NCBI RefSeq assembly: GCF_044324875.1
Contig: NZ_CP172185.1
Source of the DNA: Escherichia coli
GTDB taxonomy: Bacteria; Pseudomonadota; Gammaproteobacteria; Enterobacterales; Enterobacteriaceae
DNA length: 64,000 nucleotides
Reading direction: 5' to 3' (one strand)
Part shown: piece by piece, positions 46,566 through 51,889 of the stretch
Position numbering within the stretch: position 1 is the first letter of the stretch
How the letters are laid out: each line of letters starts with the position of its first letter
Translations under genes and position numbers: made by a program
Notes under the pieces: generated by a model
Told to the model about the DNA's origin: nothing
What the model saw: the letters and a program-made list of their open reading frames with translations, nothing else
Databases searched by the model: none

Positions 46566-47765
46566 ATGACGGAACAAGAAAAAACCTCCGCCGTGGTTGA
46601 AGAGACCAGGGAGGCCGTGGACACCACGTCACAACCTGTCGCAACAGAAAAAAAGAGTAAGAACAATACCGCATTGATTCTCAGCGCGGTGGCTATTGCT
46701 ATTGCTCTGGCGGCGGGCGTCGGTTTGTATGGCTGGGGTAAACAACAGGCCGTCAATCAGACTGCCACCAGCGATGCCCTGGCTAATCAACTGACGGCAC
46801 TGCAAAAAGCCCAGGAGAGCCAAAAAGCTGAGCTGGAAGGCATTATCAAGCAACAAGCTGTACAGCTTGAGCAGGCGAATCGTCAGCAAGAAACGCTGGC
46901 AAAACAGTTGGATGAAGTCCAACAAAAGGTCGCCACCATTTCCGGCAGCGATGCTAAAACCTGGCTGCTGGCTCAGGCCGATTTTCTGGTGAAACTCGCA
47001 GGACGGAAGCTGTGGAGCGATCAAGACGTCACGACCGCTGCAGCGTTGCTGAAAAGTGCAGATGCCAGCCTGGCGGATATGAATGACCCGAGTCTGATTA
47101 CCGTTCGTCGGGCAATTACCGATGATATCGCCAGCCTTTCTGCGGTATCGCAGGTGGATTATGACGGCATCATCCTGAAGCTCAATCAGCTTTCAAATCA
47201 GGTAGATAACCTGCGTCTGGCCGATAATGACAGCGATGGTTCGCCGATGGATTCCGACGGTGAAGAGCTTTCCAGTTCCATCAGCGAATGGCGTATCAAT
47301 CTGCAAAAAAGCTGGCAGAATTTTATGGACAACTTCATTACGATTTGCCGTCGTGATGACACCGCCGTACCGCTGTTAGCGCCAAATCAGGATATCTATC
47401 TGCGCGAAAATATTCGCTCTCGCCTGCTGGTCGCGGCACAAGCCGTACCGCGTCATCAGGAAGAGACTTATCGCCAGGCGCTGGAGAACGTCTCCACCTG
47501 GGTACGTGCTTACTACGATACTGATGATGCCACCACCAAAGCGTTCCTCGACGAGGTGGACCAGTTAAGCCAGCAAAATATCTCGATGGATCTCCCGGAA
47601 ACCCTGCAAAGCCAGGCGATGCTGGAAAAACTGATGCAGACTCGCGTGCGTAACCTGTTGGCACAACCGGCAGCGGGGACAACGGAAGCTAAACCTGCAC
47701 CTGCACCTGCACCTGCACCTGCACCGCAAGCTGATACTCCGGCAGCCGCGCCGCAAGGAGAATAA
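46566..47765 (+). CDS. hemX: HemX (putative uroporphyrinogen-III C-methyltransferase-like membrane protein)
   Basis: 399-aa ORF with N-terminal TM segment, coiled-coil Q-rich region and C-terminal Pro-Ala repeat. Confidence 0.85.
47693..47722 (+). repeat. Hexanucleotide tandem repeat (cctgca)n within hemX encoding (PA)n
   Basis: aaacctgcacctgcacctgcacctgcaccgcaa: four or more tandem cctgca units encoding [13 protein letters not shown] near the HemX C-terminus. Confidence 0.7.
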
Positions 47766-47767
47766 CC

Positions 47768-48964
47768 ATGCTAAAAGTGTTATTGCTCTTTGTTTTGCTG
47801 ATTGCGGGGATAGTGGTTGGCCCGATGATTGCCGGACACCAGGGTTACGTGCTGATCCAGACCGACAACTACAATATTGAAACCAGCGTCACTGGCCTGG
47901 CGATTATTTTGATTCTGGCAATGGTAGTGCTGTTTGCCATTGAGTGGCTACTGCGGCGGATCTTCCGCACAGGCACACACACCCGTGGGTGGTTTGTCGG
48001 ACGTAAGCGTCGCCGTGCCCGTAAGCAGACCGAACAGGCGCTGCTGAAACTGGCGGAAGGCGATTATCAGCAAGTTGAAAAGCTGATGGCGAAAAATGCC
48101 GATCACGCTGAACAACCGGTGGTGAACTATCTGCTGGCTGCCGAAGCCGCGCAACAACGCGGTGATGAAGCACGCGCCAACCAACATCTGGAACGCGCAG
48201 CGGAGCTGGCCGGCAACGACACAATTCCGGTAGAAATCACCCGTGTACGTCTGCAACTGGCCCGTAATGAAAACCATGCAGCACGTCACGGCGTTGATAA
48301 GCTGCTGGAAGTTACGCCACGCCATCCGGAAGTATTACGTCTGGCGGAACAGGCGTATATCCGCACTGGTGCATGGAGTTCGCTGCTGGATATCATCCCA
48401 TCAATGGCAAAAGCCCACGTTGGCGATGAAGAGCATCGTGCAATGCTGGAACAACAGGCATGGATTGGCCTGATGGATCAGGCGCGTGCCGATAACGGTA
48501 GCGAAGGTTTGCGTAACTGGTGGAAAAACCAAAGCCGGAAAACGCGTCATCAGGTGGCGTTACAGGTGGCAATGGCGGAACATCTTATTGAATGTGACGA
48601 TCATGATACTGCCCAGCAAATTATCATCGACGGCCTGAAACGCCAGTATGACGATCGCCTGCTGCTGCCGATCCCGCGTCTGAAAACCAATAACCCGGAA
48701 CAGCTGGAAAAAGTGCTGCGCCAACAGATCAAAAACGTGGGCGATCGCCCGTTGTTGTGGAGCACACTGGGTCAGTCGCTGATGAAGCACGGCGAATGGC
48801 AGGAAGCATCGCTCGCCTTCCGCGCGGCGCTGAAACAACGTCCGGACGCCTACGATTACGCATGGCTTGCCGACGCGCTGGACAGACTGCACAAGCCGGA
48901 AGAAGCCGCAGCGATGCGTCGCGATGGCTTGATGTTAACGTTGCAGAACAACCCGCCACAGTAA
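47768..48964 (+). CDS. hemY: HemY (TPR-containing membrane protein, protoheme IX biogenesis)
   Basis: 398-aa ORF with N-terminal TM helices; conserved position. Confidence 0.9.
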   Translation: MLKVLLLFVLLIAGIVVGPMIAGHQGYVLIQTDNYNIETSVTGLAIILILAMVVLFAIEWLLRRIFRTGTHTRGWFVGRKRRRARKQTEQALLKLAEGDYQQVEKLMAKNADHAEQPVVNYLLAAEAAQQRGDEARANQHLERAAELAGNDTIPVEITRVRLQLARNENHAARHGVDKLLEVTPRHPEVLRLAEQAYIRTGAWSSLLDIIPSMAKAHVGDEEHRAMLEQQAWIGLMDQARADNGSEGLRNWWKNQSRKTRHQVALQVAMAEHLIECDDHDTAQQIIIDGLKRQYDDRLLLPIPRLKTNNPEQLEKVLRQQIKNVGDRPLLWSTLGQSLMKHGEWQEASLAFRAALKQRPDAYDYAWLADALDRLHKPEEAAAMRRDGLMLTLQNNPPQ

Positions 48965-48967
48965 TCT

Positions 48968-48998
48968 ATATCGCCTCGTTCAGAGGCGATATTTTTTT
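48968..48998 (+). terminator. Rho-independent terminator of the hemCDXY operon
   Basis: 10-bp stem atatcgcctc / gaggcgatat with loop gttca, followed by tttttt. Confidence 0.65.
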
Positions 48999-49004
48999 AC
49001 CAGG

Positions 49005-49604
49005 ATGTCAAAATTGCGCACGCCGTCCCGCTATCTTTTTCGCTTGCCATCGCATGAAATTACTCCTTTTCGGGCAACGCTCTTTTTAATCTTGTTGATA
49101 TGTGCCGCTCTGGCTGGCGTAAGTTGGCTGATTATTTCCTTTGTGCGTACGGGCAATACATTCATCTTCTGGTTAACACTTTTTATTGGGTATCTGATAG
49201 CTGCGGCGAAGCAGGAAAAAATCAAGCTCCTCAAGAAGTACCGAATCATGGCAGATAAACGTCGGGGACGCTCCATTTGCCAGTTCGCCCGCGAATTTGA
49301 CACCTACACCGTAGATACATGGGTGATTCGTGCGGTGTGGGATACCTTGCAAGGAAACGGTTATATCGATTACCCACTGCCACTGAAAGCCGATGATATA
49401 CTGGACGATGATCTGGATTTGGTGAGCGACGCAGTCGAGTTAGAAGAGCTGGTTGAAGATACCGCTGCTCGTTGCGGGCGCGATCTATGCGGAATAGAAG
49501 AGAATCCGTTTCTTCCCATCGTCACGGTAGGCTCTCTTGTAAGAGTGTTAAACGCGCAACCGATGACCCAGGAGCGACGTAACCAGTTCTTTATCCGGTC
49601 ATAA
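49005..49604 (+). CDS. Hypothetical protein (up to 199 aa; N-terminal TM segments, acidic C-terminal region); start uncertain
   Basis: Long ORF between the hemY terminator and glmZ. Predicted TM helices (ATLFLILLICAALAGVSWLIISF, FIFWLTLFIGYLIAAA) and an acidic tract (DDILDDDLDLVSDAVELEELVEDTAA). The first ATG abuts the terminator T-run, so a later start (e.g. ATG ~49248) is possible. Not recalled as annotated in K-12. Confidence 0.3.
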   Translation: MSKLRTPSRYLFRLPSHEITPFRATLFLILLICAALAGVSWLIISFVRTGNTFIFWLTLFIGYLIAAAKQEKIKLLKKYRIMADKRRGRSICQFAREFDTYTVDTWVIRAVWDTLQGNGYIDYPLPLKADDILDDDLDLVSDAVELEELVEDTAARCGRDLCGIEENPFLPIVTVGSLVRVLNAQPMTQERRNQFFIRS

Positions 49605-49809
49605 AAAAACGCCTGCTCTTATTACGGAGCAGGCGTTAAAACAGGTCTGTATGACAACAAGTGGGTGCTTCACTCAACGTTGTGTCCATGGTGTCTGATG
49701 AGGCATAAGCGACATCTGTCAGTGGACGATAAGCACCGTAAACGGCTCTGCGTCATTCCGGAGTTTATGAGGCACTAAGGCGAACATAAGAGATGGAATG
49801 AGCATCTAC
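49603..49809 (-). ncRNA. glmZ: GlmZ small regulatory RNA (activator of glmS translation)
   Basis: The reverse complement reads GTAGATGCTCATTCCATCTCTTATGTTCGCCTTAGTGCCTCATAAACTCCGGAATGACGCAGAGCC...ACGCCTGCTCCGTAATAAGAGCAGGCGTTTTTTT, matching my recollection of GlmZ with its terminator hairpin and U-tail; known to lie between hemY and aslA. Confidence 0.8.
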
Positions 49810-50233
49810 TCGTTTATTATGCCACAGAGAACCGGGAAATAACATCCCTTAACACTTGTTATGAGATAATTCTGTAATCCTCTTTGCTTCCTGAGTAATA
49901 ACTTCCTGAGTGAATATTTCTCCTGCGCACGATTCTACACATATATATAATGAATAATAAAAGTCATTCAATTAATAACATATATATTAATTGCCGTTAA
50001 AACTAAAAACAGCATCAATAATCAACGCGATATAACATCACCGCCTTACATATCACCTGCGCCAGAGGTAGGATTGAAAACGCTCTCCTGATTTTCCAAT
50101 TCATTTTCTGGATAAATAAATAATTTATTTTTATCACTATTATTTATGCAATCATCCTGTCAGGGAGAGGGATCTCAATTATCAATGCTTAATTACGTCA
50201 TCATTTTGACGACATGAAACCGGAGCATTTTGC

Positions 50234-51889
50234 ATGGAATTTTCGTTTTCACCCAAACTTCTTGTTGTAGCTGTCGCCGCCGCTCTTCCTCTCATGGCCA
50301 GCGCAGCAGATACCCCGTCAACCGCCACCGCACGCAAAGGCTTTGCCGGATACGATCACCCAAACCAGTATCTGGTTAAACCGGCGACCACTATTGCCGA
50401 CAACATGATGCCGGTGATGCAGCATCCTGCACAAGACAAAGAAACCCAGCAGAAGCTGGCAGAACTTGAGAAAAAAACCGGTAAGAAACCGAACGTGGTT
50501 GTTTTCTTGCTGGATGATGTGGGCTGGATGGATGTTGGCTTTAACGGCGGTGGCGTGGCGGTGGGTAACCCTACACCAGATATCGACGCCGTTGCCAGCC
50601 AGGGGCTGATTTTAACTTCGGCGTATTCTCAACCGAGTTCTTCCCCAACCCGCGCCACGATTCTTACCGGACAATACTCCATCCACCACGGCATTCTGAT
50701 GCCGCCAATGTACGGGCAACCGGGCGGTCTGCAAGGGTTAACCACTCTGCCGCAGTTGCTGCACGATCAGGGCTACGTCACTCAGGCCATCGGGAAATGG
50801 CATATGGGGGAAAACAAAGAGTCGCAGCCGCAGAACGTTGGCTTTGATGATTTCCGCGGTTTTAACTCGGTATCCGATATGTATACCGAATGGCGTGATG
50901 TTCACGTCAACCCGGAAGTCGCCCTGAGCCCGGATCGTTCTGAATACATCCAAAAACTGCCGTTCAGCAAAGATGACGTTCATGCCGTGCGCGGCGGTGA
51001 ACAGGAAGCCATTGCCGACATTACGCCGAAATATATGGAAGACCTGGATCAACGCTGGATGGAATATGGCGTTAAGTTCCTCGACAAGATGGCGAAGAGC
51101 GATAAGCCTTTCTTCCTCTACTACGGCACTCGCGGCTGTCACTTCGATAACTACCCTAATGCGAAATATGCGGGTAGCTCTCCGGCGCGCACCTCTTACG
51201 GCGACTGCATGGTGGAGATGAACGATATCTTCGCCAATCTGTATAAAGCACTGGAGAAAAACGGTCAGCTTGATAACACGCTGATTGTGTTCACCTCTGA
51301 TAACGGTCCGGAAGCCGAAGTTCCGCCGCACGGTCGCACACCGTTCCGCGGTGCGAAAGGTTCTACATGGGAAGGCGGCGTTCGTGTGCCAACCTTCGTT
51401 TACTGGAAAGGCATGATCCAACCGCGTAAATCTGACGGCATTGTCGATCTGGCGGATCTCTTCCCTACGGCGCTGGATCTGGCGGGGCATCCTGGGGCGA
51501 AAGTAGCGAATTTAGTACCGAAAACCACCTTTATCGATGGTGTGGACCAGACATCTTTCTTCCTGGGAACAAATGGTCAGTCTAACCGTAAGGCCGAGCA
51601 CTACTTCCTCAACGGTAAACTTTCTGCTGTGCGTATGGATGAGTTCAAGTATCACGTCCTGATCCAGCAACCGTACGCGTATACCCAGAGCGGGTATCAG
51701 GGTGGATTCACCGGCACAGTAATGCAAACGGCGGGATCGTCGGTGTTTAACCTGTACACCGATCCGCAGGAAAGCGACTCTATCGGCGTGCGCCATATCC
51801 CAATGGGTGTACCGCTACAGACCGAAATGCATGCGTATATGGAGATCCTGAAAAAATATCCACCACGCGCGCAGATTAAATCTGATTAA
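50234..51889 (+). CDS. aslA: Arylsulfatase AslA (putative; FGly-type sulfatase)
   Basis: 551-aa ORF with signal peptide and the sulfatase signature [15 protein letters not shown]; preceded by a strongly AT-rich promoter region (~49900-50230). Confidence 0.9.

What the first reader, a model, noticed from the sequence alone, without database searches (positions are those of the whole stretch)
49005..49604. Protein-like ORF between the hemY terminator and glmZ
A 199-codon ORF with two predicted TM helices and a strongly acidic C-terminal region fills the gap between the hemCDXY terminator and the convergent glmZ terminator. I do not recall an annotated gene at this position in K-12. It may be an unannotated small membrane protein or an accessory insertion. 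Its 3' end abuts the GlmZ terminator, so convergent transcription could affect GlmZ 3'-end formation.
Basis: inference. Interest (0 to 1): 0.45.

Follow-up and report, generated by a model that had tools for sequence, protein, structure and literature searches.

The report
Membrane-anchored carrier-protein-like accessory gene
The ORF between hemY and glmZ is a real, already annotated but uncharacterised accessory gene, present in about 13% of E. coli and absent from K-12, that encodes a small inner-membrane protein whose cytoplasmic domain looks like an acyl carrier protein that cannot carry anything.

Summary
The ORF is there as described, on the + strand at 49005-49604, with two hydrophobic helices and an acidic C-terminal part. 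The true start is probably the TTG at 49014, giving 196 aa.

It is a genuine gene. dN/dS is 0.22-0.27. The reading frame is kept in hundreds of homologues down to about 30% identity. AlphaFold2 gives pLDDT 94.

RefSeq already annotates it as "hypothetical protein" (for example EC042_RS22245). It is in 693 of 5426 complete E. coli genomes, as two alleles that are 84% identical. K-12 has an unrelated 44-bp spacer instead.

It occupies the same hemY-ORF-glmZ slot in an Escherichia cryptic clade, in E. albertii (split into two ORFs) and in Klebsiella aerogenes. The slot is therefore old, not a recent insertion.

The function is unknown. My inferred best guess is a membrane-tethered, non-acylatable ACP-like binding module. 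An effect on GlmZ 3'-end formation is untested and not specific to this ORF.

The parts
47768..48964 (+). hemY, last named gene of hemCDXY. The ORF follows it on the same strand.
   Evidence: Pfam HemY_N on the orthologue
48965..49600 (.). Variable 636-bp segment present in 12.8% of complete E. coli genomes. K-12-type genomes have an unrelated 44-bp spacer with its own hairpin in its place.
   Evidence: alignment A1; 693/5426 genomes; no similarity between the two versions
48968..48999 (+). 10-bp-stem hairpin followed by T7, a terminator-like element between hemY and the ORF. The stem core is conserved in K. aerogenes, but the T-run is absent there.
49002..49005 (+). AGGA Shine-Dalgarno-like motif 8 nt upstream of the probable start codon
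   Evidence: sequence; AGGAG in the same place in L005 and L007
49014..49604 (+). Probable true CDS, 196 aa (TTG start, TAA stop).
   Evidence: PGAP coordinates; homologue N-termini; dN/dS 0.22-0.27
49014..49064 (+). Codons 1-17: cytoplasmic N-terminal segment with the family motif MRxPSRxMP(K/P), net charge +3
49065..49259 (+). Codons 18-82: transmembrane helical hairpin (AF2 helices 18-46 and 49-82) with a 2-3 residue periplasmic turn. The sequence is poorly conserved, as expected for a plain anchor.
49260..49583 (+). Codons 83-190: cytoplasmic ACP-like helical domain. R83, F91, D101, R106 and D128 are invariant; C89, W103, R153, R156, N164-P165, T171 and Q182-P183 are nearly invariant.
49389..49463 (+). 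Codons 126-150: acidic stretch (net -12) spanning the loop and the helix that corresponds to ACP helix II. S138 sits at the ACP serine position but is Asn in the ST131 allele and absent in most of the family.
49603..49809 (-). glmZ sRNA, convergent. Its terminator hairpin is at 49608-49637 and its U-tail overlaps the ORF stop codon.
   Evidence: Rfam RF00083, 218 bits; terminator scan

Best explanation
The ORF is a functional accessory gene, transcribed in the same direction as hemCDXY and placed directly after hemY.

What is shown or strongly predicted:
- It encodes a 196-aa inner-membrane protein with both ends in the cytoplasm.
- The parts are a short, basic, conserved N-terminal motif, a transmembrane helical hairpin that serves as an anchor, and a strongly acidic cytoplasmic domain with the four-helix fold of acyl carrier proteins.
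- The serine that carries phosphopantetheine in true carriers is not conserved, so the domain cannot shuttle acyl groups.
- The gene is an old resident of the hemY-glmZ spacer in Escherichia and Klebsiella aerogenes. It evolves about ten times less constrained than its neighbours, has been lost from most E. coli including K-12, and is broken in E. albertii.
- It belongs to a large uncharacterised family that also travels as an integron gene cassette in other phyla.

What is inferred about mechanism: the protein most likely works as a binding module held at the inner face of the membrane. It would use its ACP-like acidic surface and its invariant Arg, Asp and Cys residues to bind, recruit or sequester a partner. 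The partner could be an ACP-recognising enzyme or a foreign protein such as a toxin or phage factor.

What is inferred about expression: in this strain, expression probably depends on read-through of the hairpin+T7 after hemY.
For: Gene reality:
- dN/dS is 0.22-0.27, against 0.008-0.027 for hemX, hemY and aslA.
- There are 644 clusters at 50% identity with E<=1e-3, and most of the listed hits are 140-200 aa and align over much of the protein.
- A 102-sequence alignment has invariant R83, F91, D101, R106 and D128.

Structure:
- AF2 gives pLDDT 94.3 and pTM 0.85.
- Foldseek against PDB and BFVD returns ACPs as the top hits; the few others rank lower.
- Weak sequence echoes point the same way: PDB profile ACP E=0.06-0.1, NCBIfam ACP models in 6/102 members, DUF1493 in 6/102.

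No carrier serine: the position is D/P/E/S/G/A across the family, and Asn in the ST131 allele.

Topology: the N-terminus is +3, the juxtamembrane segment +7 and the C-domain -11; the family median for the C-domain is -7.

Locus history:
- The same slot is used in E. sp. E1V33, K. aerogenes CP077429.1 and contigs L005 and L007, with glmZ 0-7 nt after the stop. E. albertii carries a split copy.
- The gene is in 693/5426 E. coli genomes, one copy each.

Integron cassettes: attC sites (GCCTAAC...GTTAGGC) flank family members in L006, L064, L088 and L058.

No + strand promoter-like site lies between 47700 and 49100.
Against: - No experiment or expression data are available here.
- The hairpin+T7 directly upstream and the lack of a recognisable promoter could mean the E. 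coli copy is barely expressed.
- The ACP relationship rests on fold plus sub-threshold sequence signals. hhalign against E. coli AcpP gives E 0.0046 but only 7.6% probability.
- Two conserved arginines (R153, R156) replace acidic residues of ACP helix II and the following loop, so a simple 'ACP mimic' picture may be wrong.
- No partner can be proposed from gene context. No neighbour family recurs in more than 10 of 80 loci.
- Repeated loss and pseudogenisation show the gene is dispensable.
Confidence: 0.6

Rival explanations
1. The gene is a single-gene conflict or defence cassette, giving anti-phage, anti-toxin or orphan-immunity protection. The membrane-anchored domain would sense or neutralise an invading protein. 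This is a specific version of the binding-module idea rather than a strict alternative.
For: The distribution is patchy across phyla. The gene has integron-cassette status in several lineages. It evolves fast, with 84% aa identity between two E. coli alleles whose neighbours are 99.5-99.7% identical. It is frequently lost or broken. Integron cassettes of unknown function have been reported to encode phage defence (bioRxiv 10.1101/2024.07.02.601719, listed).
Against: There is no consistent PADLOC hit: the E. coli protein has none, and only three of the 102 members each give a different weak match. Phages carry no copy, and plasmids give only one weak partial match. Neighbours are mostly housekeeping genes, and only a few loci adjoin PIN, SLATT or helicase genes. 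dN/dS is well below 1.
Confidence: 0.2
2. The gene is an accessory fifth gene of the hemCDXY operon, working with the membrane proteins HemX and HemY in haem or porphyrin biogenesis.
For: It lies on the same strand immediately after hemY in Escherichia, K. aerogenes and L007. In the latter two the spacer hairpin has no T-run, so co-transcription is likely.
Against: 87% of E. coli do without it. In Phytobacter/Kosakonia and Superficieibacter the orthologue follows an rlmC-like methyltransferase gene instead. Outside enterics no hem gene is a neighbour.
Confidence: 0.08
3. The coding function is secondary. What matters is that the segment changes transcription into the 3' end of glmZ.
For: The stop codon overlaps the glmZ U-tail, and the 0-7 nt spacing is kept in three genera. 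The segment brings its own hairpin+T7 after hemY.
Against: Purifying selection on the protein, and a family that exists far from any glmZ, show that the protein itself is selected. glmZ and its terminator are identical in ORF-plus and ORF-minus genomes, and hemY converges on glmZ in K-12 anyway.
Confidence: 0.07
4. It is a chance ORF or a decaying pseudogene with no function in E. coli.
For: It carries only a 'hypothetical protein' label. A terminator-like hairpin lies upstream and no promoter was found. Frameshifted or split copies exist (P0026, P0038, E. albertii).
Against: dN/dS is 0.22-0.27 over 591 bp in three pairwise comparisons. All 693 E. coli matches cover at least 80% of the ORF query, and most protein clusters found are full-length. 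The family is deep and conserved, and the AF2 model is confident.
Confidence: 0.05

Closest known systems
Acyl carrier proteins / PP-binding superfamily (e.g. E. coli AcpP, mitochondrial ACPM/NDUFAB1)
   Different: There is no conserved phosphopantetheine serine. The domain is tethered to the membrane by an N-terminal transmembrane hairpin and has an extra helix (88-93) with a conserved Cys. The conserved R-x-G-R replaces acidic residues of ACP. No synthase, AcpS or fatty-acid/polyketide genes lie nearby. Sequence similarity is below every curated threshold.
DUF1493 (PF07377), an enterobacterial family of unknown function
   Same: 6 of 102 family members match weakly (best E 0.008). Both are small and of unknown function. 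From memory, not checked here, DUF1493 belongs to the ACP-like clan.
   Different: The E. coli protein does not match the model even at E<=10. As I recall it, not checked here, DUF1493 proteins are about 115 aa. A direct profile-profile test was not possible because I held no DUF1493 sequences.
CptA/YgfX (PF07254), a two-TM membrane protein encoded next to sdhE
   Same: The protein is of similar size and has a transmembrane hairpin followed by a cytoplasmic part. 8 of 102 members match the Pfam model weakly (best E 2.7e-5).
   Different: hhalign of the family against E. coli YgfX gives 1.6% probability over 5 residues. There is no sdhE-like partner gene. The weak hits are probably driven by the hydrophobic helices.
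[quoted passage not shown]
   Same: In Pelomonas, Lysobacterales, Oceanobacter and an ENA metagenome contig, family members are single promoter-less ORFs bounded by attC sites inside cassette arrays.
   Different: The E. coli, E. albertii and K. aerogenes copies have no attC and no integron. They sit in a fixed chromosomal slot between hemY and glmZ.

Membership tests
Acyl carrier protein / PP-binding superfamily | Four-helix ACP fold | tested here: met
Acyl carrier protein / PP-binding superfamily | Conserved serine (DSL motif) at the N-terminus of helix II for 4'-phosphopantetheine attachment | tested here: not met
   The equivalent column is D23/P19/E16/S11/G9/A8 of 102. S138 of the window protein lies in a 2-residue insertion found only in enterics and is Asn, Cys or Gly in close orthologues.
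Acyl carrier protein / PP-binding superfamily | Significant match to curated PP-binding/ACP sequence models | tested here: not met
   No Pfam PP-binding hit at E<=10. NCBIfam ACP models match only 6/102 members, at E about 1e-3. PDB profile best E is 0.059. hhalign against AcpP gives 7.6% probability.
Acyl carrier protein / PP-binding superfamily | Actual phosphopantetheinylation and acyl carriage | not testable with these tools
   This needs mass spectrometry of the purified protein.
DUF1493 (PF07377) | Match to the Pfam model above its gathering score | tested here: not met
   The window protein has no hit. 6 of 102 relatives hit with a best E of 0.0078.
CptA/YgfX (PF07254) | Sequence homology to YgfX and an adjacent sdhE (cptB) gene | tested here: not met
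   hhalign probability is 1.6%. There is no conserved neighbour.
Integron gene cassette | ORF bounded by attC recombination sites within an array | tested here: not met
   This is not met in the window. The ORF is bounded by the hemY hairpin and the glmZ terminator, with no attC-like RYYYAAC...GTTRRRY element. It is met for relatives in L006, L058, L064 and L088.
Known anti-phage defence systems (PADLOC-DB 2.0) | Match to a defence-protein model, or residence in a defence island | tested here: not met
   The window protein has 0 hits, and the 102 members give only 3 scattered weak hits. Flanking genes show no recurrent defence family.
hemCDXY operon | Same-strand gene directly downstream, co-transcribed and conserved with hem genes | tested here: inconclusive
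   Position and strand are met in Escherichia, K. aerogenes and L007. A hairpin+T7 intervenes in E. coli. The gene is absent from 87% of E. coli and sits elsewhere in Phytobacter and Superficieibacter. Co-transcription was not testable.

The most novel reading that the evidence does not exclude
The family is a previously unrecognised class of membrane-tethered 'pseudo-ACP'. Under this reading a carrier-protein fold has lost its prosthetic-group serine and been re-used as a decoy or sensor at the inner membrane. It would be mobilised as an integron cassette and would act as a single-gene protective or lipid-metabolism-modulating module, for example by trapping an ACP-dependent toxin, a phage factor or an acyltransferase.
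Probability: 0.15. Interest if true: 0.65.

Novelty: new variant of a known kind. Interest (0 to 1): 0.35.

Why it matters
For the genome scan, the finding resolves to a real gene that reference annotation already lists as a hypothetical protein, so it is not a missed gene.

It matters modestly beyond that, for three reasons:
- It defines a large, well-conserved and confidently foldable protein family that has no Pfam, NCBIfam or PADLOC model. Its architecture is unusual: a transmembrane hairpin plus a serine-less ACP-like domain.
- It marks the hemY-glmZ spacer as an old polymorphic slot. ExPEC lineages such as ST131 and phylogroup-D strains like 042 differ from K-12 there, right next to a well-studied sRNA. 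Anyone comparing GlmZ 3'-end biology across strains should know about it.
- It links an enterobacterial chromosomal gene to the integron cassette pool.

Tried and rejected
- Family libraries. Pfam, NCBIfam, PADLOC and PHROGs scans of the protein gave no meaningful hit. Per-member scans of 102 relatives gave only weak ACP, DUF1493, CptA and DUF4131 echoes.
- CptA/YgfX homology. Rejected by hhalign against E. coli YgfX.
- K-12 spacer as a relic. The 44-bp spacer is not a relic of the ORF's 3' end, because Smith-Waterman scores fall within shuffled controls.
- Conserved gene neighbours. All-against-all BLAST of 909 flanking ORFs in 80 loci found nothing recurrent. Pfam and PADLOC scans of the 125 immediate neighbours also found nothing recurrent.
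- Plasmid or phage carriage. There was one weak plasmid hit and no phage hit.
- Own promoter. No sigma-70-like site was found on the + strand between 47700 and 50300. This is a weak test.
- attC scoring script. My own regex and complementarity script returned zero in both the test and the control sets, so it was uninformative. Cassette status was shown by repeat finding instead.
- AFDB50 fold search. The library was not available.
- Literature. Searches for the RefSeq protein accessions returned nothing. Searches for DUF1493 and for a serine-less membrane ACP-like protein returned nothing relevant. The GlmY/GlmZ synteny paper PMC3045617 places glmZ next to hemCDXY; none of the five passages that the term search returned mentions this ORF.

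Full report
**Observation.** The window has a 199-codon ATG ORF at 49005-49604 on the + strand.
- Upstream, hemY ends at 48964 and is followed by a 10-bp-stem hairpin with a T7 run at 48968-48999.
- Downstream, Rfam finds GlmZ (RF00083, 218 bits) at 49603-49809 on the - strand. The ORF's TAA stop therefore overlaps the sRNA's U-tail.
- Hydropathy windows above 1.6 cover residues 22-44 and 47-65. Residues 126-150 have a net charge of -12.
- The description is correct.

**Start codon.** The true start is probably not the ATG at 49005.
- PGAP annotates a 591-nt CDS that starts at the TTG at 49014.
- All homologues begin MR(T)PSR.
- The codon is ATG in the ST131 allele, ATG in the Klebsiella-like contig L005 and GTG in L007. 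An AGGA(G) motif lies 6-8 nt upstream in each case.
- The product is most likely 196 aa.

**Is it a gene?** Yes.
- Nei-Gojobori estimates between the window allele, the ST131 allele and the Escherichia sp. E1V33 allele give dN/dS of 0.22-0.27. The flanking hemX, hemY and aslA give 0.008-0.027.
- An exhaustive HMMER search found 644 clusters at 50% identity with E<=1e-3, and 286 with E<=1e-10. Most of the listed hits are 140-200 aa and align over much of the protein.
- An alignment of 102 members at 27-85% identity has five invariant and fourteen nearly invariant positions.

**Distribution in E. coli.**
- The segment is in 693 of 5426 complete genomes (12.8%), once per genome.
- Every carrier listed or inspected annotates it as "hypothetical protein", for example WP_001260227.1 (EC042_RS22245) in strain 042 and WP_001260226.1 in ST131.
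- There are two allele groups: 104 genomes with a 042-like allele (>=95% nt identity) and 589 with an ST131-like allele (87.5%).
- The two alleles are 84.2% identical in protein, while HemX and HemY of the same genomes are 99.5% and 99.7% identical.
- Synonymous divergence of the ORF between the alleles (0.33) is 2-4 times that of the flanks (0.075-0.14). It is close to the value against the cryptic-clade genome (0.38).
- K-12-type genomes lack all 636 bp between the hemY stop and the CATAAAAAAA of the glmZ terminator. They carry 44 unrelated bp with a different hairpin.

**History of the locus.** The same order, hemY then ORF then convergent glmZ, is found in the following.
- Escherichia sp. 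E1V33.
- E. albertii CP030778.2, where the gene is split into 80-aa and 118-aa ORFs.
- Klebsiella aerogenes CP077429.1.
- The Klebsiella-like contig L005.
- The unnamed enterobacterial contig L007.

In L005 and L007 GlmZ scores about 210 bits, and its 3' end lies 4-7 nt after the ORF stop. Protein identity to the window is 42% (L005) and 57% (L007), while HemY is 90-92% identical. With a roughly tenfold higher dN/dS this fits vertical descent of a fast-evolving gene followed by repeated loss, though repeated insertion at a hotspot is not excluded.

In Phytobacter/Kosakonia, Superficieibacter and an Enterobacteriaceae MAG the orthologue lies after an rlmC-like methyltransferase gene and before art transport genes.

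**The protein.** AlphaFold2 on the 102-sequence alignment gives mean pLDDT 94.3 and pTM 0.85.
- The helices are 18-46 and 49-82 (a transmembrane hairpin with a 2-3 residue turn), then 88-93, 102-116, 140-154, 172-180 and 186-190.
- The N-terminal segment is basic (+3), the juxtamembrane segment is +7 and the rest is -11. The family median for the C-domain is -7. This fits an N-in, C-in topology.
- The hairpin sequence is poorly conserved, whereas the N-terminal motif MRxPSRxMP and the C-domain are well conserved.

**Fold assignment.**
- Foldseek against PDB and BFVD gives ACPs as the top hits, with non-significant E-values and target-normalised TM-scores up to 0.69-0.73.
- Sequence echoes agree but stay below thresholds: profile versus PDB E=0.059-0.11, NCBIfam ACP models in 6/102 members, DUF1493 in 6/102, and hhalign versus AcpP at 7.6% probability.
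- The column equivalent to the phosphopantetheine serine is not conserved. The Ser138 of the window protein is Asn in the ST131 allele.
- The domain is therefore ACP-like in fold but is not a carrier.

**Context and mobility of the family.**
- A scan of one genome per GTDB species found 96 relatives. They are scattered over Gamma-, Beta- and Alphaproteobacteria, Campylobacterota, Armatimonadota, Planctomycetota, Verrucomicrobiota and others.
- No neighbouring gene family recurs. The most widespread is found in 10 of 80 loci, and the immediate neighbours show no recurrent Pfam or PADLOC family.
- In L006, L058, L064 and L088 the gene is bounded by attC sites (GCCTAAC...GTTAGGC) inside arrays of small same-strand ORFs, so it is an integron cassette there. 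L019, L050 and L072 also have flanking repeats.
- Phages carry no copy, and plasmids give only one weak partial match.
- A domain-only profile search found 398 clusters. None has a Pfam domain, every name a source gives is "hypothetical protein" except one JGI label of "acyl carrier protein", and none of the 120 listed exceeds 191 aa, which leaves no room for a fused domain. One member is a tandem duplication of the whole module.

**Expression.** No sigma-70-like site was found on the + strand from 47700 to 50300. In E. coli a hairpin+T7 separates hemY from the ORF. In K. aerogenes and L007 a hairpin without a T-run occupies that place. Transcription by read-through from hemCDXY is the simplest inference, but it is untested.

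**Interpretation.**
- Shown: this is a real, selected, already annotated accessory gene for a small membrane protein with a serine-less ACP-like cytoplasmic domain. It is old at this locus and widely lost.
- Inferred: it acts as a membrane-tethered binding module. Whether it serves conflict or defence, lipid metabolism or something else cannot be decided here.
- A haem-specific role is unlikely given its distribution.
- An effect on GlmZ 3'-end formation is possible in principle. However, hemY plays the same convergent role in K-12, and glmZ is identical in both locus types.

**Verdict.** The gene is an uncharacterised family within a known fold class. Interest is moderate to low for the scan (0.35).

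Noticed in passing
window 47690-47740 (3' end of hemX): HemX ends in a Pro-Ala repeat ([13 protein letters not shown]). hemX length differs between strains: 1218 nt in 042, 1200 in the window and ST131, 1194 in E371 and 1182 in J53. I did not check whether the length difference lies in this repeat. It also shows that the window is not strain 042 itself.
   Followed up: no
L006:1-8102, L064:1-6000, L088:5200-9000, L058:5400-8200: These are clear chromosomal integron cassette arrays. attC repeats of 60-100 nt with GCCTAAC/TAACAA...GTTAGGC ends separate small same-strand ORFs of unknown function. One cassette in each array encodes a member of this family.
   Followed up: partly
L094:2766-3357 and L095:3001-3357 (E. 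albertii): The E. albertii copy at the same locus is called as an 80-aa and a 118-aa ORF, or as the 118-aa C-terminal part alone. It looks like a frameshifted pseudogene. Frameshift variants also occur in some E. coli (P0026, P0038).
   Followed up: partly
L004:2957-3000 (K-12-type spacer between hemY and glmZ): The 44-bp K-12-type spacer contains its own perfect hairpin (CCCGGAGG...CCTCCGGG) without a T-run, and it is unrelated to the ORF-bearing segment. Its origin and role are unexplained.
   Followed up: partly
window 48968-48992 versus L005:4950-4975: The hairpin after hemY keeps its stem core (ATCGCCTC...G[A/G]GGCGAT) between E. coli and the Klebsiella-like contig, although the ORF is only 42% identical. 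Only E. coli has the T7 tail. The element may have its own function, such as mRNA 3' end formation or attenuation.
   Followed up: no
L005:5971-6044: In the Klebsiella-like contig a tRNA gene lies upstream of glmZ where E. coli has aslA. In K. aerogenes genomes an amino-acid permease follows. This agrees with the reported variability of the region upstream of glmZ (PMC3045617).
   Followed up: no
window 49031-49303 (- strand): A 90-aa GTG ORF runs antisense inside the gene. It was not tested on its own; it is most likely an antisense by-product of the + strand gene.
   Followed up: no
P0172 (354 aa, metagenomic): One family member is a tandem duplication of the whole module, with the transmembrane hairpin plus ACP-like domain present twice. 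This hints that the unit may work as a dimer.
   Followed up: no
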